A DNA stretch of 32,000 nucleotides from Acidothermus cellulolyticus 11B. Its GTDB lineage: Bacteria > Actinomycetota > Actinomycetes > Acidothermales > Acidothermaceae. A program made the translations under genes and the position numbers. Positions 11,799 to 32,000 of the stretch are shown here, piece after piece. The notes beneath the pieces were generated by a model. The model did not search any database. It saw nothing but the letters and a program-made list of their open reading frames with translations, and was not told where the DNA came from. The stretch covers positions 420,001-452,000 of the forward strand of contig NC_008578.1 of NCBI RefSeq assembly GCF_000015025.1, in the 5' to 3' direction. The first letter of the stretch is position 1. The number at the start of each line of letters is the position of its first letter.

Positions 11799-12063
11799 CG
11801 TACCGTCCCGCCGGGCAATGCCGTACTGACGCACCACCGCCGGGCGTAAGGCACCCTCCCGCCCGAACAGGGCTCCCGCACCGCCGCCCGGCGTCCGGCG
11901 CCGCTCGCGGCCGGGTCCGTCGTCCTGCGCCGCCGGGCATCCGGCCCGGCTCGCGGCCGACTGACCGCCGGAACCTTCCCGGGTCATCAGGCGTCCATAC
12001 TCCGGACCCTTGATCAACCACTGACGCTACGGTGCATGGCGACGGTCACCAAGGGGGAGCGGC

Positions 12064-13464: not shown

Positions 13465-13516
13465 CGCCGTGGTCTCACGTGATCCCGGCAGTTGACGAAG
13501 GTAAGGGACGGCGTCC

Positions 13517-15610: not shown

Positions 15611-18328
15611 TTGCGTCGCGCCCTCATCCTCCCCGCACTGCTCGCGCTTCCGATTGGTCTTCTCGTCGCTCCTGTCATCTCTGCACCCACTCCCACGCCG
15701 CACGCGGTGGCGCCGCGCGTCTACCACCACTCGCTCAACGTCCCGCCGCAACCGGTAACGAGCGGCGGCCTGGTCACGACCGGCGAGTTGGCGACCAAGC
15801 CGTTCCGCGCGGTGGGGCTGAGTTGGCGACACGATCCGGCGATCACCAATCTCAAAGCCGAGATTCGCGTGCGCACCGACGGGCGCTGGACGTCGTGGCA
15901 GGACGTCGAGGCCAGTGACATCGGTGCGGATCGGTCCACGGACTCCGGGCGGGTGGCACCGCGGGACGCGACCGAGCCGCTCTGGGTCGATCACGCGGAC
16001 GGCGTCCAGGTGCGGCTGATCGCATATACCGGGGACGAGCCGAAGGATCTCCGGATCGAGCTCATCGACCCCGGCACTTCCGCAGCCGATGCGCATCCGG
16101 GCCCGCCGCATCCGCTGCAAACAGCCGTGGCTGCCGCTGCGCAACCGCAGATCTACACCCGTGCCCAGTGGGGCGCGGACGAGTCGCTGCGGCTCTCGGC
16201 ATGTCCGGACGGTCCGCAGTACACCGGGCCGGCCAAGGTGGGGTTCGTCCACCACACGGTGACCGGGAACTCGTACACGCCTGCCGACGTACCCGCCATC
16301 ATCCGGTCGATCTACGCCTATCACGTGCAAGGCGAAGGCTGGTGCGACATCGGATACAACTTCCTCGTCGACCAGTTCGGCCGGATCTGGGAAGGCCGGT
16401 ACGGCGGTGTCGACAAGAACGTGCTCGGCGCGCATACCGGCGGGTTCAACACCAACAGTTTCGGCGTCGCGATGATTGGGACGTTCACCACCGCCGTGCC
16501 GCCGACCGCGATGGTCAATGCAGTCGCCGCACTGATGGCGTGGAAATTCACCATCAACTACGACAATCCCCTCGGCACCGCGACTCTCGTCGCTGCATCT
16601 TTCAGCGGATCGCGATACCCGGCAGGGACGCCGGTGACCCTCAACGTCGTCTCCGGCCACCGTGACGTCGACCTCACCGACTGTCCCGGCGACGGCGGGT
16701 ATTCGGTCCTTCCGGCAATCCGCCAGCTTGCCGCGCAGGACATGGGGAATTCCGGCCTCGTCCAGCCGTCGGCCGTGGTCACCCAGCGCACCGTCTCGGG
16801 CAACGGCAGCGTTCGTGTCACCGCCGGCATGATGAGCCCCGGGGATTGGACGCTCGCGGTGCAGAATTCCGCTGGCGCCACGGTCCGGACGGTGTCCGGC
16901 TCCGGTTCGACCGTCGACGTCACGTGGGACATGACCGATGACTCGGGCGTTCCGGTTCCGCCCGGCCCGTACACCCTGACGTTGTCGAGCGTGCAGAACG
17001 GCAATGCGGCATATCCGTGGTCGACGACGGTTGTGGTTGGCGCGCCGTTCGGTTCATTGGACGGCGCAACGGCCCCTGCCCTGAACACTGTTGAGGTGCG
17101 CGGCTGGGCCCTGTCGGGGTTGAGCGACGATCCGGTGACCGTCCGGGTCACCGTTTCCGGGGCGACCGTCGGCACGACGACGGCCACCGCTCCGCGGCCT
17201 GATGTGGCTGCAGTGTTTCCGGGTTATTCCATCAACCATGGTTATGACGCCACTTTTTCCGCGAGCCCTGGTTATCACACGGTGTGCACGTTCGGCGTCA
17301 GTACCATCGGCGGCCCGGACACTCTGCTCGGCTGCCAAGGGGTGACCGTGCCTGGCCCGTCCATGACCGGGAATCCGCAAGGGAATTTCGAGACGATTCG
17401 CGGCGGACCCGGCGTCGTTGAAGTAACCGGCTGGGCACTTGACCCCGATACGGTCAATCCGATCACCGTGCATGTCTATGTCGACGGCGCATTTGCGACG
17501 GCGATCACGGCGGACGGCAACCGTCCGGACGTCGCCGCGGTCTTCCCGCAGTACGGCCCCGCGCACGGCTTCGACGGCTTTGTCACCGGCCTGTACGGCG
17601 GCACGCACACGGTGTGCGTATACGCGATAAACGTCGGCCCGGGCACGGTCAATCCCGTTCTCGGGTGCAAGCAGGTGAGTCTGCCGGGCGGGAATCCATT
17701 TGGGAATTTCGAAGCGGCGCAGGGTCTTCCCGGTGCTGCGCGGGTGACCGGCTGGACGATCGATCCCGACACGGCGAATCCGATTCTCGTACACGTGTAT
17801 GTGGACGGCCGGTTTGCCGGCCTCGGCCGGGCGGACGGCAACCGGCCGGATGTGGCCGCGGCGTTTCCCGGATACGGTGCGGCGCACGGCTTTGACGTGA
17901 CCGTGCCGGTCAGCTACGGCGGTCGTCACCAGGTCTGCGTGTACTCGATTAACGTCGGTGTCGGTTCGGTGAATCCGCTGCTCGGTTGCCGGACGGTGAC
18001 GCTGCCTACCGGGGTGCCGTTTGGTTCACTGGACACTGCGGTCGGCGGTTCGGGAACCATCCACGTCACCGGTTGGGCGATTGATCCGGACGTCGTCACC
18101 CCGATTGTGGTGCACATTTATGTGGACGGCCGCGGCGCCGTAGCGCTCACCGCGAACGGCTATCGCCCGGATGTTGCAGCGGCATTTACCGGATACGGAT
18201 CCGCGCATGGTTTTGCCGGCGACGTCGGCGCTTCGCCGGGTACTCACCTGGTGTGCGCGTACGGCATCAATGTCGGGCCGGGTAACGTGAATCCGCTGTT
18301 CCGGTGCCTGCGGGTGACCGTGCGCTGA
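15611..18328 (+). CDS. Secreted N-acetylmuramoyl-L-alanine amidase (Amidase_2/PGRP domain) + Ig-like domain + 4 copies of the ~105-aa repeat
   Basis: TTG start with AGGAG 8 nt upstream, followed by signal peptide MRRALILPALLALPIGLLVAPVISAP. The Amidase_2 core spans about 16151-16690 (YTRAQWGADE...VHHTV...GWCDIGYNFLVD...GAHTGGFNTNSFGVAMIG...GHRDV..TDCPG). A FlgD-Ig-like stretch (GDWTLAVQNSAG...PPGPYTLTLSS) lies at about 16835-16990. Confidence 0.9.
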   Translation: MRRALILPALLALPIGLLVAPVISAPTPTPHAVAPRVYHHSLNVPPQPVTSGGLVTTGELATKPFRAVGLSWRHDPAITNLKAEIRVRTDGRWTSWQDVEASDIGADRSTDSGRVAPRDATEPLWVDHADGVQVRLIAYTGDEPKDLRIELIDPGTSAADAHPGPPHPLQTAVAAAAQPQIYTRAQWGADESLRLSACPDGPQYTGPAKVGFVHHTVTGNSYTPADVPAIIRSIYAYHVQGEGWCDIGYNFLVDQFGRIWEGRYGGVDKNVLGAHTGGFNTNSFGVAMIGTFTTAVPPTAMVNAVAALMAWKFTINYDNPLGTATLVAASFSGSRYPAGTPVTLNVVSGHRDVDLTDCPGDGGYSVLPAIRQLAAQDMGNSGLVQPSAVVTQRTVSGNGSVRVTAGMMSPGDWTLAVQNSAGATVRTVSGSGSTVDVTWDMTDDSGVPVPPGPYTLTLSSVQNGNAAYPWSTTVVVGAPFGSLDGATAPALNTVEVRGWALSGLSDDPVTVRVTVSGATVGTTTATAPRPDVAAVFPGYSINHGYDATFSASPGYHTVCTFGVSTIGGPDTLLGCQGVTVPGPSMTGNPQGNFETIRGGPGVVEVTGWALDPDTVNPITVHVYVDGAFATAITADGNRPDVAAVFPQYGPAHGFDGFVTGLYGGTHTVCVYAINVGPGTVNPVLGCKQVSLPGGNPFGNFEAAQGLPGAARVTGWTIDPDTANPILVHVYVDGRFAGLGRADGNRPDVAAAFPGYGAAHGFDVTVPVSYGGRHQVCVYSINVGVGSVNPLLGCRTVTLPTGVPFGSLDTAVGGSGTIHVTGWAIDPDVVTPIVVHIYVDGRGAVALTANGYRPDVAAAFTGYGSAHGFAGDVGASPGTHLVCAYGINVGPGNVNPLFRCLRVTVR
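17042..18325 (+). repeat. Array of 4 tandem ~105-aa protein repeats (amidase C-terminus): 17042-17353, 17369-17686, 17687-18007, 18008-18325
   Basis: The units align on NPxGNFE / GWAxDPD / PIxVHVYVDG / RPDVAAAFPGYGxAHGF / GxHxVCVYxINVGxGxxNPxLGC. Copy 1 is degenerate. Confidence 0.9.
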
Positions 18329-18419
18329 CCGGCTTCGCCGGCTGCCGGTGCGGCCGCGGCCCGCCGCGCTGATTGCCGGTAAGATGCCGCCCTGGACACC
18401 GTCAGGCGGCGAGGAGCGG

Positions 18420-19808
18420 ATGAGCGCAACCGGAGGTCCACGACGGCGTGTGCTCGTCGTGACGAGCGACCCGCTGCAGGTGAAAATGGCCGGGCCGGGA
18501 ATTCGTGCCTGGCACATCGCGAAAATCCTCGGCGCCGAACACGACGTGAAACTCCGGAGCACCTCGGGCTGCTCCTTGTCCGGTGAGGGTTTCGACGCGG
18601 GCGCGACAGCGACGGCGGCCGAGGTGCGCGCCCTCGTCGAGTGGGCGGACATTCTCGTCGTCCACGGTGACGCCGTGCATGCCTACCCGTTCATCCGGGA
18701 GAGCGGGAAAATCCTGGTCGCCGACTTGTACGACCCGTTCCACCTCGAACAACTGGAACAGACCCGATGGCACGACCGGCCGGGGCGTGACCATCTCATC
18801 GCCGCGGCGACGGCCGTCATCGATGAGCTGTGCCTCCGCGGCGATTTCTTTCTCTGCGCGAGTGAACGGCAGCGCGCGTTCTGGCTGGGACATCTCGCCG
18901 CGCTCGGCCGGGTCAACGTGGCGTCGTACGACGCGGACGCCACGCTGCACACGTTGTTCGGAATCGTGCCGTTCGGTATTCCGGAGCAGCCGCCGGTCCG
19001 CCGGCGCCGGGCGTTGAAAGGGACTCATCCCGGCATCGGCCCGGACGACACGGTCATTCTCTGGGGCGGTGGCATTTACGAATGGTTCGACCCGCTCACC
19101 GTGATCCGCGCGGTCGGTGAGCTCGCACCCACGCATCCGGCGGTCCGATTGTTCTTCCTCGGCATGCGCCATCCGCATCCCGGCGTACCCGAAATGCCGA
19201 AGGCCCGGCAGGCCCGCGAACTCGCCGATGCTCTCGGGCTTACCGGGTCGCACGTTTTCTTCAATGATTCCTGGGTGGATTACGCCGACCGCGCCGATTA
19301 TCTGCTCGACGCCGATATCGGGGTGAGCTGCCACCTGGAATCGGTGGAAACAGAATTCTCGTTCCGCACCCGGATGCTGGATTACCTGTGGGCCGGGCTG
19401 CCGATGGTCGCGACCCGCGGCGACGTTTTCGCCGATTTGATTGAGAAACACCGTCTTGGGGCGACGGTCGCCCCGGGCGACGTCCGCGGTTTCACCGAGG
19501 CGCTGCGCCGGCTGATCGACGACGTCCAGTACCGGCGCGAATGCCGGGAGCGGACCGCAGGGGTCGCGGATCAGTACCGGTGGCCGGCGGTCCTTCAACC
19601 GCTGGTCGCATTCTGTCGTTCTCCCCGGCGCGCACCCGACCTCGTCGATCCGCTCACCGCCCGGCGCCTTGCCCGGGCATCGCGCCGGGTGGCGCGCGAG
19701 GTGGAGGGCTGGCGTCGTGACCTTGATGTGCTCACCGCGCACTACCAGCTCGGCGGCCTCCGCCGGCTGGCCGCCCGGGTGCGGCGCCGGATCACGGACC
19801 GGCGGTAG
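18420..19808 (+). CDS. Glycosyltransferase, GT-B fold (group 1 / GT4-like)
   Basis: RRVLVVTSDPLQVKMAGPGIRAWHIAKIL N-domain. The C-domain has VILWGGGIYEWFDP...RLFFLGMRHP and an EX7E-like ETEFSFRTRMLDYLWAGLPMV. ATG 18420 is preceded by GAGGAG; alternative starts are 18348 and 18384. Confidence 0.75.
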   Translation: MSATGGPRRRVLVVTSDPLQVKMAGPGIRAWHIAKILGAEHDVKLRSTSGCSLSGEGFDAGATATAAEVRALVEWADILVVHGDAVHAYPFIRESGKILVADLYDPFHLEQLEQTRWHDRPGRDHLIAAATAVIDELCLRGDFFLCASERQRAFWLGHLAALGRVNVASYDADATLHTLFGIVPFGIPEQPPVRRRRALKGTHPGIGPDDTVILWGGGIYEWFDPLTVIRAVGELAPTHPAVRLFFLGMRHPHPGVPEMPKARQARELADALGLTGSHVFFNDSWVDYADRADYLLDADIGVSCHLESVETEFSFRTRMLDYLWAGLPMVATRGDVFADLIEKHRLGATVAPGDVRGFTEALRRLIDDVQYRRECRERTAGVADQYRWPAVLQPLVAFCRSPRRAPDLVDPLTARRLARASRRVAREVEGWRRDLDVLTAHYQLGGLRRLAARVRRRITDRR

Positions 19809-19833
19809 GTCGGATCACGGACGGGCGTTAGGT
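19788..19833. repeat. 23-nt tandem duplication spanning the 3' end of the + strand GT gene and the convergent intergenic gap
   Basis: cggatcacggaccggcggtaggt / cggatcacggacgggcgttaggt, with 21 of 23 positions identical. The first copy contains the TAG stop (19806-19808). The second copy ends on the first base (19833) of the minus-strand GT stop codon. Confidence 0.9.
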
Positions 19834-20945
19834 CAGCCCGCGCAGGCCTGCCGGTAGGCGGCGACGGTCAGGTCGGCGCATCGGTCCCAGGTGAAGGTCG
19901 CGGCCCACGTCCGCCGGGCGGACCGGCCGGCGTCGTCAGCCGCGTCGTCCGAGATCGCGCAGAGCGCCTCCGCGAGCGCTTCGGCGTCCGAGACCGGGAC
20001 GTACCGGGCCAGCCCGCCGGTGACTTCGCGCAGCGCCGGGATGTCGCTCGCCACCACCGGCGTGCCGCAGGCGAACGCCTCGAGCGCCGGCAGTCCGAAA
20101 CCCTCGTACCGGGACGGAATCACCACGGCAGCCGCACCGGCGGTCAGCGAGCGGACGACGTCGTGCGGCAGGTAGCCGGTGCGCACCACTGATCCGTCGT
20201 CGGCGGTGTCCACCGGCACGTCACCCCACCCGGCGGCGCCGACCACGACGAGCGGCGGCACCTGCGGGTTGCCGGCCCGGGCGAGCCGGTGCGCCTGGAG
20301 GAGGACGGGCAGATTTTTGCGGGGTTCAAGGGTGCCGATGAAGAGCACATATCTAGCCGGGATCCGGTAACGCTCCCGCAGTTCGCGGCCCGGCGGGGTC
20401 GCGGTGAACCACGCGGCGTCCACCCCGAGCGGCGTGACCACCACGCGGTCACGCGGAAACCCATAGGCGGCCGTGAGGTCGTCGGCGATCGCCCGCGAGG
20501 GGACGACGACCACCCGGGCGCGTTGCAGGGCGCGCGGGACGAGCACCCGGTACTCCCGCGACTTCGCGTCGACGGTGTCGGGATACAGGAGGAAGGCCAG
20601 GTCGTGAATGGTGACGACTCCGGCGGCGGACCGGGCCGGCGGCAGCACGAAGTTGGTGCCGTGGAAGACGTCGGCCCGCCCGCAGATCCGTTCGACTGGT
20701 GGAAGATTGCTGAGCCGCCACGCGAGGCGGAGCGCTCGGGCCGGTGCCCGGCGCGCGCGCACGGCAGCTCCCGGCGGCAGGTCAGGCAGGCGGTTCAGCC
20801 GGCCCCGCCAGGTGAAGGCGGTGAGGGTGAGGCGGACGTCGTCCCGCGCGGCGAGGGCGGCGGCGAGCTGAGCGACGTAATGCCCGACGCCGGTGCGGAT
20901 GCCGAGCAGCGGGGTGGCGTCCAGCGTGACATGCACGCTCGGCAT
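19833..20945 (-). CDS. Glycosyltransferase family 4 (GT-B, group 1)
   Basis: VHVTLDATPLLGIRTGVGHYV N-terminus; C-domain FIGTLEPRKNLPVLL...IPSRYEGFGLPALEAFACGTPVVASD (EX7E). I chose ATG 20945; the tracked start at 21038 adds a non-homologous leader. Confidence 0.85.
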   Translation of the reverse strand: MPSVHVTLDATPLLGIRTGVGHYVAQLAAALAARDDVRLTLTAFTWRGRLNRLPDLPPGAAVRARRAPARALRLAWRLSNLPPVERICGRADVFHGTNFVLPPARSAAGVVTIHDLAFLLYPDTVDAKSREYRVLVPRALQRARVVVVPSRAIADDLTAAYGFPRDRVVVTPLGVDAAWFTATPPGRELRERYRIPARYVLFIGTLEPRKNLPVLLQAHRLARAGNPQVPPLVVVGAAGWGDVPVDTADDGSVVRTGYLPHDVVRSLTAGAAAVVIPSRYEGFGLPALEAFACGTPVVASDIPALREVTGGLARYVPVSDAEALAEALCAISDDAADDAGRSARRTWAATFTWDRCADLTVAAYRQACAG

Positions 20946-21055
20946 CGTGTCACGGGCGCTGGTCGGACGGCGCGGTGGTGTGCCGTAGCATGGGGAAACG
21001 ACCGACAAGATCGTACCCGCACGAATGGTGCGCCGCACGAAGCCGGAGTCCCACG

Positions 21056-21862
21056 GTGACCCAGGTGGCCGAGTTGTGGCGTTACCGCGGTTTGATCGGC
21101 AATTTCGCCAGCCGCGAGCTGAAATCGAAGTACAAGCACAGTGTGCTCGGCTGGGCCTGGTCGCTGATCAATCCTGCGGCGACGCTTGCGATCTATACCG
21201 TGGTTTTTTCGACGATATTCCGGGCGACGCCGCCTCCCGCGCACAACGGCATGACGACCTACGTCGTCTATCTGTTCATCGGCCTGGTCGCGTGGAACTT
21301 CTTCAGCAATGTGGTCAACGGCAGCATGGCGGCGCTGATCGGCGCCGGCGCGTTGCTCAAGAAGATTTACTTTCCGCCGTACGCACCGGTCCTCGGCACC
21401 GCGGCTTCGGCGCTGGTGCAGACGAGCATCGAGTTCGGCGTCCTGTTGCTCGTGCTCGTCGGCGTGGAGAACGTCTCCTGGTCGCTCTTCCTGACGCCGC
21501 TCGTCTTGGCGCTGCTGCTCATCTTCGCCTCGGGGATCGGTCTCCTCTTCGCGCTGTTCAACGTCTTTTACCGGGACATCAGCTACTTGGTCGGCGTGGT
21601 GTTGCAGCTCATTTTCTATGCGACACCGGTCATTTGGGCGCCGCAGCAGCTGCTCGGGCACGCGCACGGCCACCTCGCGGTGCGGGTACTTGCCATCAAT
21701 CCGCTGTACCAATTCGTCGAGGGTTTCCGCGACGTGCTCTGGACCGGAACGGTTCCGTCAGCAAGCCGGTGGGGGTGGATGATTCTCGCCGCGGCGATCA
21801 GCATCGGTGTCGGGCTGACCGTGTTCATTCGCGGGTCGCGTGACGTGAGCGAGGAACTATGA
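21056..21862 (+). CDS. wzm: ABC-2 type polysaccharide export permease (Wzm/RfbD/TagG-like)
   Basis: LWRYRGLIGNFASRELKSKYKHSVLGWAWSLINP is the classic ABC-2 N-terminal motif, followed by about 6 TM segments. GTG 21056 has GGAG 7 nt upstream. The stop overlaps the next start (ATGA). Confidence 0.85.
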   Translation: MTQVAELWRYRGLIGNFASRELKSKYKHSVLGWAWSLINPAATLAIYTVVFSTIFRATPPPAHNGMTTYVVYLFIGLVAWNFFSNVVNGSMAALIGAGALLKKIYFPPYAPVLGTAASALVQTSIEFGVLLLVLVGVENVSWSLFLTPLVLALLLIFASGIGLLFALFNVFYRDISYLVGVVLQLIFYATPVIWAPQQLLGHAHGHLAVRVLAINPLYQFVEGFRDVLWTGTVPSASRWGWMILAAAISIGVGLTVFIRGSRDVSEEL

Positions 21863-23133
21863 CGCAAACCGCTACGTCCGATCGTCCACCGGCGGTCATC
21901 GTCGACCACGTCACGAAGGATTTCAAGCTGTACCGGGAACGCCGGACCAGCCTCAAGGAGCGGCTGACGACTCGGCGGCCGAGCCGTTACGAGTTGTACC
22001 GCGCGCTTAACGACGTCAGTCTCGTCGTGCCTGCGGGATCGACGTACGGCCTGATCGGAGCCAACGGATCCGGCAAGAGCACGTTGCTGAAGTTGATGGC
22101 GAACATCCACCGCCCGACCAGCGGCACTATCACGCACAACGGCAGGATCACCGCGCTGCTGGAGCTGGGTGCGGGCTTTCACCCGGAACTTTCCGGCCGC
22201 GACAACGTCTACCTCAATGGGTCGATTCTGGGACTGAGCCGGAAGCAGGTGGCCGCGGCGATGGATGACATCATCGAGTTCAGCGGCCTCCGTGACTTCA
22301 TTGACGCACCGGTCAAGGTCTATTCGTCCGGAATGTACGTGCGTCTCGGCTTCTCGGTCGCGGTCAACCTCGACCCGGAAATTCTCATCATCGATGAGGT
22401 CATTGCGGTGGGTGACGAGGAGTTTCAGCGCCGTTGCTTCGACCACCTGGCGAAGCTGCGCCGGCGCGGCGTCACCATCATTTTCGTCTCGCACAGCATG
22501 CCGCTCGTGCAGACGCTCTGCGATCGAGTGGCCTGGATCGACCGGGGAGTGCTGCGGGCCGAAGGGGATCCGAGCGAGGTCGTCGACGCGTACCTCGCGG
22601 TGGTGAACGCCGCCGAGCGGGAACGTCTCGCCGCGCAGGGGGAAGCCGCGGCGTCCGGTGAGGCCGTGCGGCGCGGCAGCCGGGAGATTGTCGTGAGCAA
22701 CGTGAGTTTTCTCGACGGCAACGGGGAACCGACGCTCGCCGCCGTCGCCGGCGAGCGGCTCGTCGTCCGGGTGCACTACGCCGCCGCACAACCGGTCACC
22801 GCACCGGTCTTTGGCCTTGCCTTCCATACCGAAGGCGGCGTGCTCGTCAGCAGCCCGAATACCGAATATGCCGGCGTGCGATTCGGCACCCTGCACGGTG
22901 AGGGTTACGTCGAGTACGTGCTCGACCACCTTCCCCTCACCCCGGGGACGTATCTCGTCTCGGCATCCATCACGGACACGTCGTTGCTGCACGTGTACGA
23001 CCAGCGCGACCGGGCGTTCACCTTGACCGTGCAACCTGGGCATTCCCTCGATCGCGGCGGGGTGGTGACCCTCGGTGGACGCTGGTCGGTTGTCGGATCA
23101 ACGGTGGGCGAGCGGGTGGAGGCAATGTCGTGA
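21859..23133 (+). CDS. wzt: Polysaccharide ABC exporter ATP-binding protein (Wzt/TagH-like) with C-terminal Wzt_C-type beta-sandwich domain
   Basis: Walker A GANGSGKST, signature YSSGMYVRLGF and Walker B ILIIDE are present. The extra ~150-aa C-terminal domain (22681-23130; EIVVSNVSFLDGNGEP...LVVRVHY...GTYLVSASI) resembles the O-antigen-cap-binding domain of Wzt. Confidence 0.85.
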   Translation: MTQTATSDRPPAVIVDHVTKDFKLYRERRTSLKERLTTRRPSRYELYRALNDVSLVVPAGSTYGLIGANGSGKSTLLKLMANIHRPTSGTITHNGRITALLELGAGFHPELSGRDNVYLNGSILGLSRKQVAAAMDDIIEFSGLRDFIDAPVKVYSSGMYVRLGFSVAVNLDPEILIIDEVIAVGDEEFQRRCFDHLAKLRRRGVTIIFVSHSMPLVQTLCDRVAWIDRGVLRAEGDPSEVVDAYLAVVNAAERERLAAQGEAAASGEAVRRGSREIVVSNVSFLDGNGEPTLAAVAGERLVVRVHYAAAQPVTAPVFGLAFHTEGGVLVSSPNTEYAGVRFGTLHGEGYVEYVLDHLPLTPGTYLVSASITDTSLLHVYDQRDRAFTLTVQPGHSLDRGGVVTLGGRWSVVGSTVGERVEAMS

Positions 23134-26100: not shown

Positions 26101-27023
26101 TGCGCTCGGCACTTGCCGCTGCGTTTCCCACGCTGGCCGACTCCGAGATCGTATTCTTCGATGCGGTCGACAGCGGTGCCGCCGAGCAGATCCCACCTGC
26201 CGACGTCGCGATCGCCACGCTCTGGCTGACGGCGTACGCGGTCTTGCACGCGCGTAACGTGCGCCGGAAGTTCTACCTCGTGCAGGATTTCGAGCCGATG
26301 TTCTATCCCGCGGGCACGTTGTATGCCGTGGCCGAGGAGACGTACCGGTTCGGCTTGTACGGCCTGTGCAACACCGACAACCTTCGCCGCATGTATGTCG
26401 AGGAGTACGGCGGAAAGGCGATGGCGTTCACTCCGGCGGTGGATCCGGCGGTCTTCCACGCCGTCGGGCGGTCCTGGCGGAGTGAGGACGATCCGGTGAC
26501 CGTGTTCGTCTACGCCCGTCCCGGTCACTGGCGCAATTGCTGGGAAGTCGCGTCGCTCGCGTTGCGGGAGTTGAAGAACCGGCTGGGTGACCGGGTGCGC
26601 ATCGTCACCGCTGGATCGTGGGCCATCGACCCGGCTGCCGCCGACAGCATGCAGCAGCTCGGTCTGCTGAGCTATAAGGGCACCGGGAATCTCTACCGCA
26701 CCTGCGATGTCGGGCTGGCGCTGACGGTCTCCAAGCATCCGTCGTACCTGCCGCTGGAGCTGATGGCCTGCGGCGTTCCGGTGGTCGCCTTCGATAATCC
26801 CTGGGGGTACTGGATTCTTCGCGACGGCGAGAATGCGCTGCTCGCCCGGCGTACCGTCGATGGTCTGGCGGATGCGCTCGAGCGGCTCTGCACCGACCAT
26901 TTGCTGCGCGAGAAGCTCGCGCAGAATGCCCTGGCGACCATCGCCGAGGGGTATACGAACTGGGATCACGCGTTTCGCGACATCTACCGGTATCTGTGCG
27001 ATCCGGAGGCCGGGTCGGCCTGA
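23130..27023 (+). CDS. 1297-aa multidomain glycopolymer synthase: methyltransferase-like domain, coiled-coil linker, degenerate GT2, canonical GT2, C-terminal GT-B (WsaF-like?) domain
   Basis: GTG 23130 overlaps the wzt stop (GTGA). Residues 1-165 are VNLGCRGGYFDGWTNVDAD...LYVGALLEQH (class I MTase-like). A heptad-like charged helix covers about 23802-23940 (LTEAHSALREVQKLRSALIREHERRVLAEQYLEELTERT). GT2-like domain 1 starts about 24267 (FLVCVLAD...LLPDAGD). GT2 domain 2 starts at 24975 (VSIIIPTRHN...VDNGG...VLVFLNDDIEL). The GT-B domain starts about 25950 (INWYIPEIDSPFYGGINTAF...ELMACGVPVVAFD). Confidence 0.8.
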   Translation: MKVNLGCRGGYFDGWTNVDADAGVRADIHLDPLDFLRRYADDIDTLYVGALLEQHPVEYALSLLRLANDRLCPGTVVVAVTHDVKAILRAAVTGALTAAESAAADVSRYVEQPENVSYYDTHSLAALFHRAGFADVTPIGDLDAELSALGVGPVDARWRCAVRGVAVGRRYRSVDAIVEAVTEDTAGETAREAAEPAAEETAGVSRAGVSRAAGGADAGRPLRPEVLTEAHSALREVQKLRSALIREHERRVLAEQYLEELTERTGEDTARRDEPVERVPEVGGREPDTAAAENAAALTWRERAKRFAKTVLPPGSRGRIAALGALHLYREGRTVLRSLRQVAAEAGFARPPSYSRWYRYHDATPHHLRLQRRASERATMPPTFLVCVLADTADRQPIATTIASIRSQSWQHAKLVICAAEPIARALQGVFSDVDVIGAPTVADAVMRAVDGSDRDFVLLPDAGDVLAADCLYRVAQAAWRNPLLDLTYWDDDQLGADGRRHDPLFRPSWSPEMLFSVNYLAQSFAVRRRRIRAIGSLHGDSAEVMRWDLLLRGNFTGEQVERLAHVLGHVRRRVFGVTEAGRQVVQAELARRGLPAAAELDAHGVRLRWQLPEWPTVSIIIPTRHNRRLLSTVLDGLRATDYPSFEVRIVDNGGYSTENEAWYAEQLRGLDAHVTWWTEEPFNYSRVNNAGAADARGDVLVFLNDDIELTDPSWLRELVGWTSVSDIGLVGLQLLDGNGRIQHGGVILGLGGFADHLFQGMAPGTMTMFGHTGWYRNLLSVTGACVAVRREVFRTIGGFDERFILCGSDVALGLDLVEAGYRNICSPYGGVRHLESATRGTDIPRQDFFTSYWRYNTWLFGGDPYFSPNLSLYSREPRLRNPFDPPILKRVSAVLGRELRVFRQKSDASEAAGLAAVSRADDVDVAAVRSLHERNQGHIDVRTINWYIPEIDSPFYGGINTAFRMADYLARRHGVQNRFVVWAKPAEEFMRSALAAAFPTLADSEIVFFDAVDSGAAEQIPPADVAIATLWLTAYAVLHARNVRRKFYLVQDFEPMFYPAGTLYAVAEETYRFGLYGLCNTDNLRRMYVEEYGGKAMAFTPAVDPAVFHAVGRSWRSEDDPVTVFVYARPGHWRNCWEVASLALRELKNRLGDRVRIVTAGSWAIDPAAADSMQQLGLLSYKGTGNLYRTCDVGLALTVSKHPSYLPLELMACGVPVVAFDNPWGYWILRDGENALLARRTVDGLADALERLCTDHLLREKLAQNALATIAEGYTNWDHAFRDIYRYLCDPEAGSA

Positions 27024-27095
27024 GCCCGACCCTGAGCCCGAATGAGCCTGTCCGGGCCGGCCTGGGCAGTGTCCAGCCGGTCACCGAAGATCGGG

Positions 27096-27170
27096 CTCCG
27101 CCGTTGTGACAGCTGACTCCGCCGTTGTGACAGCTGAGACAGTTGTGACCGGTTAAGGGATTTGTGAGAC
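27096..27170 (+). promoter_or_regulatory. Candidate operator/promoter array upstream of the SpoIID gene: 21-nt tandem repeat x2 plus two further TTGTGA boxes
   Basis: ctccgccgttgtgacagctga occurs at 27096-27116 and 27117-27137 and the two copies are identical. Next come gacagttgtgac (27138-27149) and tttgtgagac (27161-27170). TGTGA starts at 27105, 27126, 27144 and 27163, giving spacings of 21, 18 and 19. Confidence 0.45.
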
Positions 27171-27252
27171 ATGCCGAAGTTTCGGCCATGTGGGGGGACC
27201 GCGCCGGTTGACGGGTTACGGTACGGAGGCCGATATCGCGAAGGGAGACGGG

Positions 27253-29901
27253 ATGGCGGAGCGCCACGCGCCGGGCATGGCTCACGACAGATCTCCGGTG
27301 CCGCATCGGAGCTGTTCCGCGCGGAGCCGGTCCGCACAGCTCGGTGGTGGCCGCCGGTGCCTGGCGCGGAACCGGTACCACGTCCTTCGCGCCGCTCTCG
27401 TGGTATTGCTGGCCGCTGGTCTCACTGGCGTCGGGCTCGCTCCCGGTGCACTCCGGGCTGCATCGGCCGAAGAGTTCGTCCCGGTGAGTGCGGACGGAAC
27501 GTTCACCGTCACCGGCCACGGGTACGGCCACGGCATCGGCATGAGCCAGTACGGTGCACTCGGCGCGGCGAAGCAAGGTCTATCCGCCGGCCAGATTCTC
27601 GCCTTCTACTACCCCGGCACCGTCCAGCAGAACGTCGGAAACCCGCAAATCCGGGTGCATCTGACGGCGTATGACGGTACGGGCATCACCGTAGGGACGC
27701 CGCCGGGCCAGCAGCAGATGACGGTGACCGACGTCGCGTCCGGCAAGTCTGCCACGGGTCCCGCGACGATGTACAAGGTGACGGTGGATCCAAGCGCGTT
27801 GCACGTCTGGTATCTGAACCCGTCGACCAAGTCGTGGCAACCGTTTCCCCTCGGCGGCTCCGCGGACACCACCGGCCCAGTGACGTTCGCCACCGGCGCC
27901 GGCGTACGGATCTACTCCGGCGACGGCAGCTCCCGGCAATATCGCGGAACGATGCGCATAACGCGCATCGGCAGCCAGACGATCGCCGCGGTCAATGACG
28001 TCGACCTTCAGTCTTACCTGTACGGCGTCGTGCCCCGGGAAATGCCGGACTGGTGGGGAAGTTCCGCGCCGGCCGCCCTGCAGGCACAGGCGATTGCCGC
28101 CCGCTCCTACGTGCTCGCGGTCGCCAATCCGAGCGCCACCTGGGACATTTGCGATACGGCGGCCTGCCAGGTGTACGGCGGCCAGCAGCTCATCACCGCG
28201 CAGGGCGCGGTGACCAATCTGGAAGGAAGTTACTCCCGCGCCGCTGTCGACGCGACCAGCGGGATCGCGTTGTTCTACAACGGTGCGCCGGCGTTCACCC
28301 AATTCTCGGCGTCCAACGGCGGTCAGGTCGCGCCCGGCAGCAAGCCGTACCTGGTGGCCAAACCCGATCCGTACGACACCGCCGATGTCGACCCGAACGT
28401 CACTTGGACGGTCAAGCTCTCGGCATCGTCGTTGCAGAGCGCGTACCCGCAGGTGGGCACTCTGCAAGGCATCGACGTCGTCTCCCGCGACGGTTACGGT
28501 GATTTCGGCGGCCGCATCACCTCGTTGCAACTTGTCGGCACCGGCGGCACCGTTTCGGTCGGCACGTATCTCGGCCTGAAGTCGAATTACTGGACCGCGC
28601 AGGGTGGCCCGAGCCCGCAGCCGGTCATTCTCAACCGTGGCACGGCGGTCGGCAATTTCGAAGCGGCGACGGCCGCAGGGCCCGGCCTCATTGCGGTGCA
28701 GGGATGGTCCTTCAACAAGGCGAACACGTCGGTCGCGGACTATGTCGACGTGTATGTCGACGGTGTCGGTGCGGGGCGGTTGGTCGCGAATCAGGTTCGG
28801 CCTGATGTGGCACAGGCGTTCAACGGGGCGGGGCCGTATCACGGGTTCTCCGCGGTCGTTGCGTCAACGGGAGGGCCGCATCGGGTCTGCGTGTACGGCA
28901 TCGACGGCGTGACGAATCCACAGCTGGGTTGCCGATCCGTGACGCTGCCGGCGGGTAATCCGCGCGGTAATTTCGAGACGCTGGCGGACGTCGGCACCGG
29001 TGTGCAGCTGAGTGGTTGGGCGCTGGATCCCGATGTGGCCGCCTCGATTGCCGTGCACGCCTATGTGGACCGCACGATAGCCGCCGTCGCGACCGCCGAC
29101 CAGCCGCGGCCCGATGTTGCCGCCGTATTTCCCGGCTACGGGCCGGCGCACGGCTTCTCCCTTGTGCTGCCGGCATTGCAGGGCACGCATAGCTACTGTG
29201 TGTACGGGATAAACGTCGGGATCGGAACGACGAATCCGCAACTGGGCTGCCGCACGATAACCCTCAACCGCAACCCACGCGGCGCCATGACAATCGCCGG
29301 ATACCAGCACGGCACGGTGACGGTGGCCGGGTGGGTGGTCGACCCTGACACGCAGGGACCGATCACCGTGCACGTCTACATCGACGGCAGGTGGGCCGGT
29401 CAGGCGACGGCGAACCTCGATGGTGCGACTGATGCGGCCAATCAGTTCCCCGGTTACGGTACACAGCACGCTTTCTCCGCGTCGCTGCCGCTGAGCGCCG
29501 GGCCGCACCAGATTTGCGTGTACGGCATCAACGTCGGCCAGGGTAACCAGAATCCACTGCTCGGCTGTGCCCTGATGACCGGCGACGGCAATCCGATCGG
29601 TCATCTCGACAACGTTGCGCAGGTGAACGGTGTCTGGACGGCGCAGGGCTGGGCGCTCGATCCGGACGTGACCACTCCCATTCCGGTGGACATTTACGTG
29701 GATCAGCAGAAGGTCGCGCGGGTCATGACCGGATCTCCGCGGCCTGATGTTGCGGTGTACTACGCCGGCTGGGGTTCCGCCACCGGTTTCCAGGCGCCGT
29801 TAACGCTGGCTGGCGGAACGCATAAAATTTGCGCCTATGCCGTCAATCAGCCGGCTGGTAACGTCAGTACCGCGTTAGGCTGCGTCACGATCCGCCTCTG
29901 A
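27253..29901 (+). CDS. Secreted SpoIID/LytB-domain protein (lytic-transglycosylase-type) + 4 copies of the ~105-aa repeat
   Basis: The SpoIID core spans about 27490-28400 (GHGYGHGIGMSQYGALGAA...YRGTMRI...LQSYLYGVVPREMP...ALQAQAIAARSY...CDTAACQVYGG...FSASNGGQ). The hydrophobic signal or anchor is VLRAALVVLLAAGLTGVGLAPGALRAASA. I chose ATG 27253 (GGGAG upstream); ATG 27190 and ATG 27277 are alternatives. Confidence 0.85.
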   Translation: MAERHAPGMAHDRSPVPHRSCSARSRSAQLGGGRRCLARNRYHVLRAALVVLLAAGLTGVGLAPGALRAASAEEFVPVSADGTFTVTGHGYGHGIGMSQYGALGAAKQGLSAGQILAFYYPGTVQQNVGNPQIRVHLTAYDGTGITVGTPPGQQQMTVTDVASGKSATGPATMYKVTVDPSALHVWYLNPSTKSWQPFPLGGSADTTGPVTFATGAGVRIYSGDGSSRQYRGTMRITRIGSQTIAAVNDVDLQSYLYGVVPREMPDWWGSSAPAALQAQAIAARSYVLAVANPSATWDICDTAACQVYGGQQLITAQGAVTNLEGSYSRAAVDATSGIALFYNGAPAFTQFSASNGGQVAPGSKPYLVAKPDPYDTADVDPNVTWTVKLSASSLQSAYPQVGTLQGIDVVSRDGYGDFGGRITSLQLVGTGGTVSVGTYLGLKSNYWTAQGGPSPQPVILNRGTAVGNFEAATAAGPGLIAVQGWSFNKANTSVADYVDVYVDGVGAGRLVANQVRPDVAQAFNGAGPYHGFSAVVASTGGPHRVCVYGIDGVTNPQLGCRSVTLPAGNPRGNFETLADVGTGVQLSGWALDPDVAASIAVHAYVDRTIAAVATADQPRPDVAAVFPGYGPAHGFSLVLPALQGTHSYCVYGINVGIGTTNPQLGCRTITLNRNPRGAMTIAGYQHGTVTVAGWVVDPDTQGPITVHVYIDGRWAGQATANLDGATDAANQFPGYGTQHAFSASLPLSAGPHQICVYGINVGQGNQNPLLGCALMTGDGNPIGHLDNVAQVNGVWTAQGWALDPDVTTPIPVDIYVDQQKVARVMTGSPRPDVAVYYAGWGSATGFQAPLTLAGGTHKICAYAVNQPAGNVSTALGCVTIRL
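28639..29898 (+). repeat. Array of 4 tandem ~105-aa protein repeats (SpoIID protein C-terminus): 28639-28950, 28951-29265, 29266-29580, 29581-29898
   Basis: Same consensus as the amidase array. Copy 2 is canonical (NPRGNFE..GWALDPD..RPDVAAVFPGYGPAHGF..YCVYGINVGIGTTNPQLGC). Copies 1, 3 and 4 each lack some motifs. Confidence 0.9.
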
Positions 29902-29973
29902 ACGGTCCGGCACACCGATGCCGTGTGGCGTGGTCATGCATCACGGATCCGCCGACGGTTGAAGGAGTATGTC

Positions 29974-32000
29974 ATGTTCCACCGGGCTACCCTTCGGCGT
30001 CCCTCCGCGCTTGCCGGGATCGTCGCAACCGTTGCGGGCAGCCTGATCGCAACGGTTGGTCATCCGGCGACCGCGCATGCCGCGACGCCGCAGCGGCAAG
30101 CCTCTGGTTGGATCACCTATTGGCAGACCGGTTCGACGACCCAGGTCGCCAACAACGGGGATCTTTTCTCGGACGTGTCCGTCTTCTGGTTTCACGCGGC
30201 CAGTGCCACGTCGATCGTGCCGTCGGGAAGTACGCCGGACAGCGTGCTGCAATCCACGATCGCTGCTGTACGGTCCCGCGGCGTGCCGGTGACGATTACT
30301 GTGACGGACGGCACCGGCAGCGGTGTGATGGCCTCGATTCTCTCCAATCCGACGACCCGCACGCAGCACGAGCAAGCGCTGCTGGCGCTCGCCACACGTT
30401 ATGGGGCGAGCGGTATTGACCTGGACTACGAAAACATGGCGGTGTACGCCAACTCCAATCCGGCGCTCGTGCAACCGACCCGGACGGGTTTCGATGCGCT
30501 GGTGCAGGAGCTGTCGACGTTGCTGCACCAGCACGGGATGATTCTTGCCGTTGATGTCATGTCGAAGACCAGCGAACCGGGCGCGACCCCGGCCGGCCAG
30601 GTGTACGACTACCCGACAATCGGCCGGTGGGCGGACCGGGTGCGCATCATGACCTACGACCAGCATTCCGCCGGTTCGGCGTACCCGGGCGGGCCGATCA
30701 GCTCGATCTCCTGGGTGCAGACCATCTTGAATTTCGCGGTCACCGTCATCCCGCCGCGGAAGATTTTCATGGGGGTGCCGCTGTATGGCTACGACTGGGC
30801 CAGTACCGGCGGCCGGGCGAAGGCCGTCACCTACCCGCAGGTGGTGAACCTGGTCGCTCAGTATCACGCGACGCCGCGGTGGTCAGCGCCGGACGGGGAA
30901 CCGTATGTCACGTACACGGACGCCAGCGGTGTCCAGCATTCGGTCTGGTACAACGACGCCAATGCGTTGCAGGCGCGGCTTCCGCTGGTCGGCAAGTACG
31001 GGCTCGGCGGGGTTGCCTTCTGGTCGTTCGGCGATGAAGATCCCGGCATCTGGTCGATACTTCGTGCCGCGACATATGGGCCGAATCCGTTCGGCAATTT
31101 CGAACAGGCAGTGCTCTGGCCGGGTGGGGTGCGGTTGACCGGCTGGGCGATCGACCCGAACACGGCGTCGTCCATCAACGTCGACGTGTACGTCGACCGC
31201 GTGATGGTGCAACGCGTTCTGGCGTCTGGAAACAGGCCGGACGTCGGCACCTTCTACTACGTGTACGGCAGCGCGCACGGTTTCGACACGGTGATCCCGC
31301 TGCACGCCGGGACGTACACGATCTGCGTGTATGGCATCAATGTCGGGCTGGGGGATACGAATTCGCAGCTCGGCTGCCGGACGGTGACGATGCCCACGAA
31401 CAATCCGGTTGGCAATTTCGAAGCCGCCGGCGGTGCGTACGGCGTCCTCACCGTCTCCGGTTGGACGCTCGACCCGGACACCGCTGACCCGATTTTCGCC
31501 CACGTATATGTCGACGGACAGTTGCGTACGATCACCCTGGCGAACGGGAACCGGCCGGACGTCGCCGCTGCGTTTCCCGGATGGGGCGCGGCCCACGGAT
31601 TTTCCGCGTCGGTGACCGTGACCGGCGGCACGCACACGGTCTGTGTGTACGGCATCAACGTCGGCTTCGGAACGGTGAATCCGCAGCTGGGGTGCAAGAC
31701 CGTATCGGTGAGTTCCGGCAATCCGGTCGGCAATTTTGAGTCCGTCACCGGCGGGTTGGGGACGCTCACCGTAAGTGGCTGGACGATTGATCCGAATACA
31801 CCGGCGCCGATCGACGTGCACGTGTATGTCGACGGCCGATTCGCCGGCAGCGGAACCGCGAACGCGAATCGGCCGGACGTCGGAGCGGCGTTCCCGTCGT
31901 ACGGTCCGGATCACGGTTTTGCGGTCACCGTGGGTGCGCCGAGCGGAACCCATACGGTCTGTGTGTACGCCATCAATGTCGGCCCGGGTGAAGCGAATCC
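29974..32000 (+). CDS. Secreted glycoside hydrolase family 18-type protein + at least 3 copies of the ~105-aa repeat; the 3' end lies outside the window
   Basis: This ORF is absent from the track because there is no in-window stop; I translated it by hand in frame 1. GAAGGAG lies 6 nt upstream of ATG 29974. The signal peptide is MFHRATLRRPSALAGIVATVAGSLIATVGHPATAHA. The GH18 catalytic motif is YGASGIDLDYE, followed by MTYDQH and GVAFWSFGDED. Confidence 0.85.
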   Translation, partial: MFHRATLRRPSALAGIVATVAGSLIATVGHPATAHAATPQRQASGWITYWQTGSTTQVANNGDLFSDVSVFWFHAASATSIVPSGSTPDSVLQSTIAAVRSRGVPVTITVTDGTGSGVMASILSNPTTRTQHEQALLALATRYGASGIDLDYENMAVYANSNPALVQPTRTGFDALVQELSTLLHQHGMILAVDVMSKTSEPGATPAGQVYDYPTIGRWADRVRIMTYDQHSAGSAYPGGPISSISWVQTILNFAVTVIPPRKIFMGVPLYGYDWASTGGRAKAVTYPQVVNLVAQYHATPRWSAPDGEPYVTYTDASGVQHSVWYNDANALQARLPLVGKYGLGGVAFWSFGDEDPGIWSILRAATYGPNPFGNFEQAVLWPGGVRLTGWAIDPNTASSINVDVYVDRVMVQRVLASGNRPDVGTFYYVYGSAHGFDTVIPLHAGTYTICVYGINVGLGDTNSQLGCRTVTMPTNNPVGNFEAAGGAYGVLTVSGWTLDPDTADPIFAHVYVDGQLRTITLANGNRPDVAAAFPGWGAAHGFSASVTVTGGTHTVCVYGINVGFGTVNPQLGCKTVSVSSGNPVGNFESVTGGLGTLTVSGWTIDPNTPAPIDVHVYVDGRFAGSGTANANRPDVGAAFPSYGPDHGFAVTVGAPSGTHTVCVYAINVGPGEAN
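31081..32000 (+). repeat. Array of at least 3 tandem ~105-aa protein repeats (GH18 protein): 31081-31395, 31396-31710, 31711 to beyond 32000
   Basis: NPFGNFEQ..GWAIDPN..VDVYVDR..NRPDVG; NPVGNFEA..GWTLDPD..AHVYVDG..NRPDVAAAFPGWGAAHGF..VCVYGINVGFGTVNPQLGC; NPVGNFES..GWTIDPN..VHVYVDG..NRPDVGAAFPSYGPDHGF..VCVYAINVG. Confidence 0.9.

What the first reader, a model, noticed from the sequence alone, without database searches (positions are those of the whole stretch)
17042..32000. Unassigned ~105-aa Cys-pair repeat present in at least 11 copies across three different cell-wall hydrolase-type proteins
The amidase (4 copies), the SpoIID-domain protein (4) and the GH18 protein (at least 3, truncated by the window edge) all end in tandem arrays of one module. 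The consensus is G-N-P-x-G-N-F-E-x(5-7)-G-x-h-x-V-x-G-W-A-h-D-P-D-x3-P-I-x-V-H-V-Y-V-D-G-x7-A-x3-R-P-D-V-A-A-A-F-P-G-Y-G-x-A-H-G-F-x8-G-x-H-x-V-C-V-Y-G-I-N-V-G-x-G-x2-N-P-x-L-G-C. Two invariant Cys residues about 15-17 positions apart suggest a disulfide in a secreted beta-rich fold. By eye, copies are strongly conserved at protein level but clearly diverged at synonymous sites, so the arrays look old and selected rather than recently duplicated. I cannot place the module in a named family (not SLH, LysM, PG_binding_1, choline-binding, GW or CW_7). The GW..D...V.VDG...RPDV...HGF core loosely recalls short modules I remember at the ends of some polysaccharide-modifying enzymes, but that is memory only. 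Attachment to three unrelated catalytic domains is the hallmark of a targeting or wall-binding module.
Basis: partly seen in the sequence, partly recalled or inferred. Interest (0 to 1): 0.85.

Follow-up and report, generated by a model that had tools for sequence, protein, structure and literature searches.

The report
Undescribed Ig-like cell-wall-targeting repeat
Three secreted cell-wall enzymes of an Acidothermus-like actinobacterium each end in about four copies of one unnamed, disulfide-stapled Ig-like module that is very common in Actinomycetota, is distantly related to the unnamed tail domain of Enterococcus phage lysins, and most likely holds enzymes on the cell wall.

Summary
Three + strand genes (Amidase_2, SpoIID, GH18) end in 4, 4 and at least 3 copies of a ~106-aa module. 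Copies are 29-67% identical as protein, with scrambled synonymous codons and no DNA-level tandem repeat.

No Pfam-A or NCBIfam model reaches the window's copies. AlphaFold2 gives a confident fold (pLDDT 94): a seven-strand Ig-like sandwich plus one short helix (RPDV). The two Cys sit opposite each other in the last hairpin.

The family is large: 10,389 clusters at 50% identity match, usually with 4-5 copies ending 3-7 residues before the stop. Partners are mostly peptidoglycan hydrolases (GH25, amidase, SpoIID, M23, glucosaminidase), with some proteases, esterases and CAP proteins.

Two new links emerged:
- The module is homologous to the "unknown cell-wall-binding" C-terminal domain of Enterococcus phage amidases (EfAmi1 type).
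- Carrier genes sit beside dTDP-rhamnose and wall-polysaccharide genes in 26 of 75 loci, including Acidimicrobiia.

Best reading: a multivalent, non-covalent wall-retention module, possibly specific for a rhamnose-containing wall polysaccharide. Binding is inferred, not shown. I rate it a new variant of a known kind, of moderate interest.

The parts
15611..18328 (+). Secreted N-acetylmuramoyl-L-alanine amidase gene (905 aa): signal peptide, Amidase_2 (aa 207-360), FlgD_ig (aa 407-462), then 4 repeat units
17033..17353 (+). Amidase unit 1, the diverged copy (29-42% identity to the others; lacks DPD and VHVYVDG)
17354..17686 (+). Amidase unit 2
17687..18007 (+). Amidase unit 3, the unit modelled by AlphaFold2 (pLDDT 94.3)
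18008..18325 (+). Amidase unit 4; the protein ends 6 residues after the second Cys
27190..29901 (+). Secreted SpoIID/LytB-domain protein gene (up to 903 aa; the true start is probably downstream of 27190), then 4 repeat units
28624..28950 (+). SpoIID protein unit 1
28951..29268 (+). SpoIID protein unit 2
29269..29586 (+). SpoIID protein unit 3 (RPDV replaced by ATDA)
29587..29898 (+). SpoIID protein unit 4; the protein ends 5 residues after the second Cys
29974..32000 (+). Secreted GH18 protein gene, cut by the window edge (signal peptide, Glyco_hydro_18 aa 98-353, at least 3 units)
31060..31395 (+). GH18 protein unit 1
31396..31713 (+). GH18 protein unit 2
31714..32000 (+). GH18 protein unit 3, cut before its second Cys; orthologues carry a fourth unit
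7403..10802 (-). Context: two LytR-CpsA-Psr (LCP) genes, the enzyme family that attaches wall glycopolymers to peptidoglycan
10731..15381 (+). Context: rmlA, a 466-aa membrane protein with no Pfam hit, rmlB and rmlD (dTDP-rhamnose synthesis), directly upstream of the amidase
18348..27023 (.). Context: two GT4 glycosyltransferases, Wzm and Wzt (with the Wzt_C domain) ABC exporter, and a 1297-aa GT2 plus WsaF-like glycosyltransferase, lying between the amidase and the SpoIID gene

Best explanation
Each ~106-aa unit is an independently folded Ig-like (E-set) beta-sandwich. It has seven strands and one short helix carrying RPDV, and a disulfide staples the last hairpin. The protein is exported, and four or five units form a C-terminal array with short linkers.

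The array most likely acts as a multivalent, non-covalent retention and targeting module. It would hold the N-terminal enzyme (here amidase, SpoIID-type or GH18) on the producer's own cell wall.

The most likely ligand is the rhamnose-containing wall polysaccharide made by the surrounding rml / glycosyltransferase / Wzm-Wzt / LCP locus, or that polymer together with peptidoglycan. Avidity would come from the repeated weak sites.

Shown here: the repeats, the fold, the size of the family, the domain partners, the homology to phage-lysin tail domains, and the gene linkage. Inferred: export-dependent disulfide formation, wall binding, and the identity of the ligand.
For: Fold:
- One unit gives pLDDT 94.3 and pTM 0.85.
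- The four-unit array gives pLDDT 94.1 and pTM 0.73.
- The best PDB fold match is the Ig-like N-terminal domain of Serratia chitinase A, a chitin-binding domain by my own recollection. E is about 1e-4 and TM 0.52-0.56.

Disulfide:
- C90 and C107 are register partners in the strand 85-93 / 104-112 hairpin.
- All 1,075 units aligned at both columns have both Cys, and 1,208 of 1,219 units have no other Cys.

Anchor-like architecture:
- In nearly all of the 150 best representatives the array ends 3-7 residues before the stop, so no anchor follows it.
- The modal copy number is 4, then 5.
- All three window proteins start with signal-peptide-like sequences (read by eye).

Partners (67 carriers scanned): GH25 10, Amidase_2 5, SpoIID 4, M23 2, glucosaminidase 2, VanY, deacetylase, GH18, plus S8, CAP, esterases and GH43. 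More were seen.

Homology to endolysin tail domains:
- The best PDB sequence match is EfAmi1 residues 204-289 (E=0.009). That stretch lies in its C-terminal domain, which is absent from the crystal.
- hhalign gives probability 78.5% and E=1.7e-5.
- An HMM built from 8 such phage domains hits 239 of 260 actinobacterial carriers and 0 of 520 decoys.
- The literature treats these domains as putative or unknown cell-wall-binding domains (PMC10167349, PMC10630273).

Linkage to wall-polysaccharide genes:
- In the window the three genes are interleaved with rmlABD, glycosyltransferases, Wzm/Wzt and two LCP genes.
- Among 75 genomic loci (6 kb either side), 26 carry rml genes and 51 carry a homologue of one of the window's polysaccharide genes.
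- In Acidimicrobiia, carriers with other N-terminal domains flank rmlA directly.

Precedent: Streptococcus mutans AtlA binds wall rhamnan through its Bsp repeats (PMC9574508).
Against: - There is no binding experiment for this module or for its phage relatives.
- The fold is a generic Ig-like sandwich. The array resembles tandem Ig/FnIII rods, and the profile weakly matches the RII extender repeats of the Marinomonas ice-binding adhesin (E=0.017). A structural or spacer role is therefore possible.
- Some partners are not wall enzymes: S8 protease, CAP, lipase/PETase-like and GH43.
- The rml linkage may only reflect general clustering of envelope genes. Many of the 26 loci are orthologous to one another, so independent lineages number about four.
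- No relative was found in 50,697 phage genomes or 2.9 million viral contigs.
- The published AlphaFold description of the EfAmi1 C-terminal domain is an eight-stranded barrel with three helices (PMC10167349). That is not obviously the same topology.
Confidence: 0.6

Rival explanations
1. The array binds peptidoglycan itself (glycan strand or stem peptide) rather than a secondary wall polysaccharide, as LysM or SH3b domains do.
For: Most identified partners cleave peptidoglycan: GH25, Amidase_2, SpoIID, M23, glucosaminidase and VanY. The relatives sit on phage amidases.
Against: Carriers are repeatedly embedded in rhamnose and polysaccharide loci across two classes. Non-peptidoglycan enzymes also carry the array. 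There is no similarity to any known peptidoglycan-binding family.
Confidence: 0.2
2. The array is a rigid spacer or stabilising stalk with no specific ligand, like the Ig-like extender repeats of large adhesins.
For: The fold is a generic Ig-like sandwich. The array's pTM of 0.73 suggests defined inter-unit geometry. Foldseek returns tandem FnIII/Ig rods, including the extender region of a large adhesin (6xi3). There is a weak profile match to the MpAFP RII tetra-tandemer.
Against: A spacer needs an anchor at its far end, but the proteins stop 3-7 residues after the last unit and have no sortase signal or membrane segment there. Polar and aromatic residues (GW, D, RPD, HGF) are 90-99% conserved over 1,219 units, which is more than fold maintenance usually needs. 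Homologous single copies form the C-terminal domain of phage endolysins, where a spacer has no purpose.
Confidence: 0.1
3. The array targets foreign material, either competitors' walls or environmental polysaccharides such as chitin. The carriers would then be secreted bacteriolytic or scavenging enzymes.
For: The nearest fold is the Ig-like N-terminal domain of chitinase A, chitin-binding by my own recollection. Partners include GH18, GH43, S8 proteases, esterases and many lysozymes.
Against: SpoIID-type proteins and LCP-linked amidases usually serve the cell's own wall remodelling (established knowledge). Linkage to the cell's own rhamnose-polysaccharide genes is conserved. No known CBM family is matched.
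Confidence: 0.08

Closest known systems
C-terminal 'unknown CWB' domain of Enterococcus phage Amidase_2 endolysins (EfAmi1, PDB 8C4D construct; IME-EFm1/EFm5, phiSHEF14, 9181/9184 types)
   Same: Homologous by sequence, with shared motifs in the same order: G-x-[LF]-[DE], V-x-G-W, RPDV-x-x-A-[YF] and G-[FY]-[DH]. It also follows an Amidase_2 domain at the C-terminus and is also absent from Pfam.
   Different: It occurs as one copy (two in VRE9/EF1-type lysins) rather than 4-8. It has no Cys pair. It is about 120 aa with a longer, divergent C-terminal half. It comes from phages of Firmicutes. Its structure is unsolved because the domain was lost from the crystal, and its function is only presumed (PMC10167349, PMC10630273).
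Pfam Big_7 (PF17957, bacterial Ig domain; E-set)
   Same: The fold is an Ig-like sandwich. On some homologues the summed weak hits over the repeats pass the Big_7 cut-off, at 28-34 bits against 24.1.
   Different: No single repeat passes on its own. The window's proteins give no Big_7 hit at E<=1, nor do single units at E<=10. The RPDV helix, the HGF strand and the Cys pair fall outside the parts of the Big_7 profile that aligned (positions 14-68 of 70 at most, 14-48 on three of four homologues).
N-terminal Ig/FnIII-like domain of Serratia marcescens chitinase A (e.g. 1EDQ)
   Same: It is the best structural match (E about 1e-4, TM 0.52-0.56). It is a glycan-binding accessory domain on a GH18 enzyme, by my own recollection.
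   Different: Sequence identity is 12-17% and there is no sequence-level hit. It is a single N-terminal copy, and TM near 0.5 shows only a shared fold class.
GBS Bsp-like repeats of streptococcal autolysin AtlA
   Same: This is a functional analogy. Tandem repeats on a wall hydrolase bind the rhamnan backbone of the wall polysaccharide and position the enzyme (PMC9574508).
   Different: No sequence relationship was detected. The hosts are Firmicutes. The function is shown experimentally there and only inferred here.
SLH and CWB2 triple repeats
   Same: This is a functional analogy. One module, repeated, anchors many unrelated secreted enzymes non-covalently to a secondary wall polysaccharide. 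It is often encoded near the genes for that polymer (established knowledge).
   Different: The folds differ (helical SLH; toprim-like CWB2), the copy number is three, and no sequence hit was found.

Membership tests
Pfam Big_7 (PF17957) | The profile HMM scores at or above the gathering cut-off (24.1 bits) on the protein | tested here: not met
   The three window proteins give no hit at E<=1. The 11 single units give none at E<=10. Four homologues (P0174, P0275, P0125, P0287) reach 28-34 bits, but only by summing stretches that do not pass individually. This indicates a distant E-set relative, not a member.
Ig-like / E-set beta-sandwich fold class | A seven-strand two-sheet sandwich that is structurally superposable on known E-set domains | tested here: met
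   The AlphaFold2 model has pLDDT 94.3 and seven strands. Foldseek matches the ChiA N-terminal domain, the sulfite oxidase dimerisation domain, CARDB and FnIII at E 1e-4 to 1e-2 and TM 0.45-0.58.
EfAmi1-type endolysin C-terminal domain (unnamed family) | Significant reciprocal profile similarity over the core of the domain | tested here: met
EfAmi1-type endolysin C-terminal domain (unnamed family) | The same three-dimensional topology | not testable with these tools
   Structure prediction was restricted to window sequences and their search hits. The crystal 8C4D lacks this domain. The paper describes its AlphaFold model as an eight-stranded barrel with three helices (PMC10167349).
Named wall-binding modules (SLH, LysM, PG_binding_1, choline-binding CW_binding_1, CW_binding_2, GW/SH3_8, SH3b, CW_7, GBS_Bsp-like, LGFP, SPOR) | A Pfam profile match | tested here: not met
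   hmmscan of each of the 11 units against all of Pfam-A at E<=10 returned only 5 chance-level families, and none of these modules. Whole proteins at E<=1 returned only the catalytic domains and FlgD_ig.
Non-covalent cell-wall-binding module (functional class) | The isolated module binds cell walls or a wall polymer | not testable with these tools
   Only indirect evidence is available: C-terminal position, partner spectrum, homology to endolysin tail domains and gene linkage.
Non-covalent cell-wall-binding module (functional class) | It is fused to many unrelated exported catalytic domains, mostly wall hydrolases | tested here: met
   32 Pfam families were found among 67 carriers, led by GH25, Amidase_2 and SpoIID. 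Further partners appear.

The most novel reading that the evidence does not exclude
The module is the founding member of a rhamnan-specific wall-anchor family. On this reading, Acidothermales, Acidimicrobiia, Micrococcales and relatives use arrays of it as a general surface-display system, the actinobacterial counterpart of SLH or CWB2. The homologous 'unknown' tail domains of Enterococcus phage lysins would recognise the rhamnose backbone of the enterococcal polysaccharide antigen by the same site.
Probability: 0.3. Interest if true: 0.75.

Novelty: new variant of a known kind. Interest (0 to 1): 0.55.

Why it matters
How non-mycolate Actinomycetota keep secreted enzymes on their walls is poorly described. 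No curated domain model at hand covers this module, although it occurs in more than ten thousand protein clusters and on most classes of wall hydrolase.

If binding is confirmed, four things follow:
- It would name a large domain family.
- It would give a handle for surface display or for labelling the walls of uncultured Acidimicrobiia and Acidothermaceae.
- It would link hydrolase placement to a rhamnose wall polysaccharide outside the Firmicutes.
- It would explain the 'unknown' binding domains of Enterococcus faecium phage lysins that are being developed as antibacterials.

Tried and rejected
- DNA-level repeat search over 15000-32000 found no array at the repeats, because the copies are too diverged.
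- The search for related loci with all 11 units failed because no stretch was conserved enough. The six closest units worked.
- tblastn of one unit against 50,697 phage genomes found nothing.
- PHROGs gave nothing below E=0.03.
- The scan of 2.9 million viral contigs found no relative.
- Foldseek against BFVD, and of the four-unit array against PDB, returned only generic Ig/FnIII matches.
- Weak Pfam hits to Glucodextran_B, Laminin_G_3 and PA-IIL on homologues are below cut-off and short. I treated them as noise.
- Literature searches for a description of the module in Acidothermus, Acidimicrobiia or Actinobacteria found none. This covers only the held open-access library.
- The first homologous-protein run with a single-unit profile listed only proteins under 200 aa among its best 120, most on short contigs, so it said nothing about architectures.
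- Model coordinates are not exposed. I therefore could not measure the Cys-Cys distance or map conserved residues onto the surface.
Full report
**What is in the sequence**

The window has about 66% G+C. Its RmlB protein is identical to one in assembly GCA_023512095.1, and the nearest loci are Acidothermus and Acidothermaceae genomes assembled from metagenomes.

Three + strand genes carry the feature:
- 15611-18328 has Amidase_2 (aa 207-360) and FlgD_ig (aa 407-462).
- 27190-29901 has SpoIID/LytB.
- 29974 to beyond 32000 has Glyco_hydro_18 and is cut by the window edge.

All three begin with signal-peptide-like segments (read from the translations). They end in 4, 4 and 3 tandem copies of one module. 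A six-frame HMM scan finds no other copy in the window. Orthologues of the GH18 protein have four copies, so a fourth probably lies beyond the edge.

**Age of the copies**

- Protein identity between copies is 29-67%, with a mean of 46%.
- DNA identity averages 55%.
- Only 47% of identical residues share a codon.
- Tandem Repeats Finder detects nothing at DNA level.

**Database status**

Pfam-A (24,736 models) and NCBIfam give no hit on the repeats. This holds at E<=1 for the whole proteins and at E<=10 for single units. PHROGs gives none either.

A search with the four-unit array returned 120 carriers with Pfam annotation precomputed from a newer release. Most have no annotation over the repeats. 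Two accessions that are absent from the library at hand (PF27111, PF26571) appear on only four of them, so they cannot be a general model of the repeat.

On some homologues Pfam Big_7 passes its cut-off, but only by adding weak stretches over several repeats. This places the module as a distant E-set relative, not a Big_7 member.

**Fold**

- AlphaFold2 on unit 3 of the amidase, with a 56-sequence alignment, gives pLDDT 94.3 and pTM 0.85. The model has seven strands and one short helix formed by PDVAAA.
- The strand after the second Cys belongs to the same unit. This explains why carrier proteins end 3-7 residues after their last Cys.
- C90 lies in strand 85-93 and C107 in strand 104-112. They are register partners in the hairpin (90+107 = 93+104). 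This is inferred from the DSSP string, because coordinates are not exposed.
- Across 1,219 units from 260 proteins, every unit aligned at both columns has both Cys, and 1,208 units have no other Cys.
- GW, the D two residues after it, R and D of RPDV, and HG are 90-99% conserved.
- The four-unit array of the SpoIID protein gives pLDDT 94.1 and pTM 0.73. A disordered spacer is therefore excluded.
- Foldseek finds only fold-class relatives. The best is the N-terminal Ig-like domain of Serratia chitinase A (E about 1e-4, TM 0.52-0.56). Others are the sulfite oxidase dimerisation domain, CARDB and FnIII, generic Ig-like viral proteins and tandem Ig/FnIII rods for the array.

**Size and architecture of the family**

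A profile of the 11 units was scored against 1.84 billion representatives clustered at 50% identity. It matches 10,389 proteins at E<=1e-3 and 2,041 at E<=1e-30.

In the 150 best, arrays have 4-8 copies and are almost always C-terminal. In genomic loci the modal copy number is 4 (40 ORFs), then 5 (27 ORFs).

Among 67 carriers scanned against Pfam, the partners were:
- GH25 (10), Amidase_2 (5), SpoIID (4).
- Peptidase_S8, CAP and chlorophyllase/PETase-like esterases (3 each).
- M23 and glucosaminidase (2 each).
- GH43, polysaccharide deacetylase, GH18, VanY, GDSL lipase and others.

Rv2525c-like hydrolases and further deacetylases, M23 and GH25 proteins appear.

A pattern scan of one genome per species found 496 encoding stretches. 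The 75 best lie almost entirely in Actinomycetota: Acidothermaceae, Acidimicrobiales/Iamiaceae, Gaiellales, Micromonospora, Modestobacter, Leifsonia, Microbacterium, Agromyces, Herbiconiux, Actinotalea and Pseudonocardia.

**A relative in phage lysins**

The best sequence match in the PDB is 8C4D chain A, residues 204-289 (E=0.009). This is EfAmi1, a prophage amidase of Enterococcus faecium.

The matched stretch lies in its C-terminal domain. The authors could not classify that domain, it was missing from the crystal, and they proposed it as a new carbohydrate-binding module (PMC10167349).

The same domain ends the endolysins of 57 phage records, 52 of them Enterococcus phages. It has no Pfam model and is called an 'unknown CWB domain' in a survey of enterococcal lysis cassettes (PMC10630273).

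- Profile-profile comparison gives probability 78.5% and E=1.7e-5 over 75 columns, with the motifs in register.

I take the homology as established. The phage domains lack the Cys pair. That fits the known avoidance of exported cysteines in Firmicutes and the oxidative folding of exported proteins in Actinobacteria (established knowledge, not tested here).

**Genomic context**

In the window the three genes are interleaved with:
- two LCP ligase genes,
- rmlA, rmlB and rmlD,
- a 466-aa membrane protein with no Pfam hit,
- two GT4 genes,
- Wzm and Wzt (with the Wzt_C domain),
- a 1297-aa GT2 plus WsaF-like protein.

This is the gene set of an ABC-transporter-dependent, rhamnose-containing wall polysaccharide.

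Of the 75 loci (6 kb on either side of a repeat), 26 contain rml genes and 51 contain a homologue of at least one of the window's polysaccharide genes.

The link is not confined to orthologues of the window. In Acidimicrobiia, carriers with a glucosaminidase or an unassigned N-terminal domain lie directly next to rmlA, often one on each side. A Microbacterium carrier is adjacent to rmlD, and a Modestobacter locus also has the link.

By a rough estimate, not computed on whole genomes, a 12-kb neighbourhood in a 2-4 Mb genome would contain the rml genes well under 1% of the time by chance. Many loci are orthologous to each other, so the number of independent lineages is about four.

**Interpretation**

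The proteins are exported and have no anchor after the array. The array is conserved at polar and aromatic positions, fused to many enzymes, homologous to the tail domain of phage lysins, and linked to wall-polysaccharide genes.

The best reading is a multivalent, non-covalent wall-retention module (confidence about 0.6). Within that, my confidence that the ligand is the rhamnose polysaccharide is about 0.35-0.4.

A precedent for hydrolase positioning through rhamnan binding is AtlA of Streptococcus mutans with its unrelated Bsp repeats (PMC9574508).

Rival readings are direct peptidoglycan binding, a ligand-free rigid stalk, and targeting of foreign polysaccharides or walls. Evidence for and against each is listed in the rival-explanations section.

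**Limits**

- No binding data exist.
- The taxonomy of the 10,389 matches is unknown.
- The literature search covers only the held open-access library.
- The module was not found in phage genomes or viral contigs.

**Verdict**

The module is an undescribed but very common Ig-like family, best classed as a new variant of the known kind 'tandem cell-wall-targeting repeat'. Interest is moderate (0.55): useful and testable, but not surprising in kind.

Noticed in passing
window 7403-27023: This is a complete-looking locus for an ABC-transporter-dependent rhamnose-containing wall polysaccharide. It holds two LCP ligases, rmlA/B/D, two GT4 genes, Wzm, Wzt with a Wzt_C domain, and a 1297-aa GT2 plus WsaF-like fusion. 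The first ~600 residues of that fusion have no Pfam hit.
   Followed up: partly
window 12064-13464 (+): A 466-aa ORF lies between rmlA and rmlB, with strong third-position GC, many hydrophobic segments and no Pfam hit. It may be an unclassified membrane glycosyltransferase or polymerase of the locus. The 12001-14000 bin also has the window's most negative AT skew (-0.23).
   Followed up: partly
window 27096-27137: There is a perfect 21-bp direct duplication (CTCCGCCGTTGTGACAGCTGA x2), followed by a third GTTGTGAC, in the intergenic region upstream of the SpoIID gene. It could be an operator. No sigma-70-like promoter or terminator was found nearby.
   Followed up: partly
window 19788-19834: A 23-bp unit is repeated twice (91% match) across the 3' end of one GT4 gene (stop at 19808) and the short gap before the convergent GT4 gene.
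   Followed up: no
L047 826-4656 and L042 4351-8184: Proteins from Gaiellales and 'Bacterium BMS3Abin01' show the reverse architecture: seven repeat copies at the N-terminal side and SpoIID at the C-terminus. The array is therefore not obligatorily C-terminal.
   Followed up: partly
L025 5590-7230 and L050 (Micromonospora): One or two repeat copies lie near the N-terminus, followed by an fn3 domain and about 300 further residues. This is an atypical, low-copy architecture.
   Followed up: no
P0174, P0338, P0310, P0339: Precomputed Pfam accessions PF27111.1 and PF26571.1, from a newer release, appear on four carriers. They are absent from the Pfam copy at hand, so their identity and location in the proteins are unknown.
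   Followed up: partly
L003, L017, L027, L031, L053, L068, L073: In several metagenome-assembled genomes, most from the MFD series, the repeat genes are split into overlapping ORFs in different frames. These are most likely assembly frameshifts rather than real pseudogenes.
   Followed up: no
L078 versus L080: The 'Listeria phage LM 4-14-1' lysin tail is nearly identical to that of Enterococcus phage 4995_1, and both records are flagged UNVERIFIED_ORG. The Listeria host assignment of this domain should not be relied on.
   Followed up: no
L081 352-1578 (Enterococcus phage VRE9_4 endolysin): This lysin carries two tandem, diverged copies of the EfAmi1-type C-terminal domain. Tandem duplication of the module therefore also occurs in phages.
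   Followed up: partly
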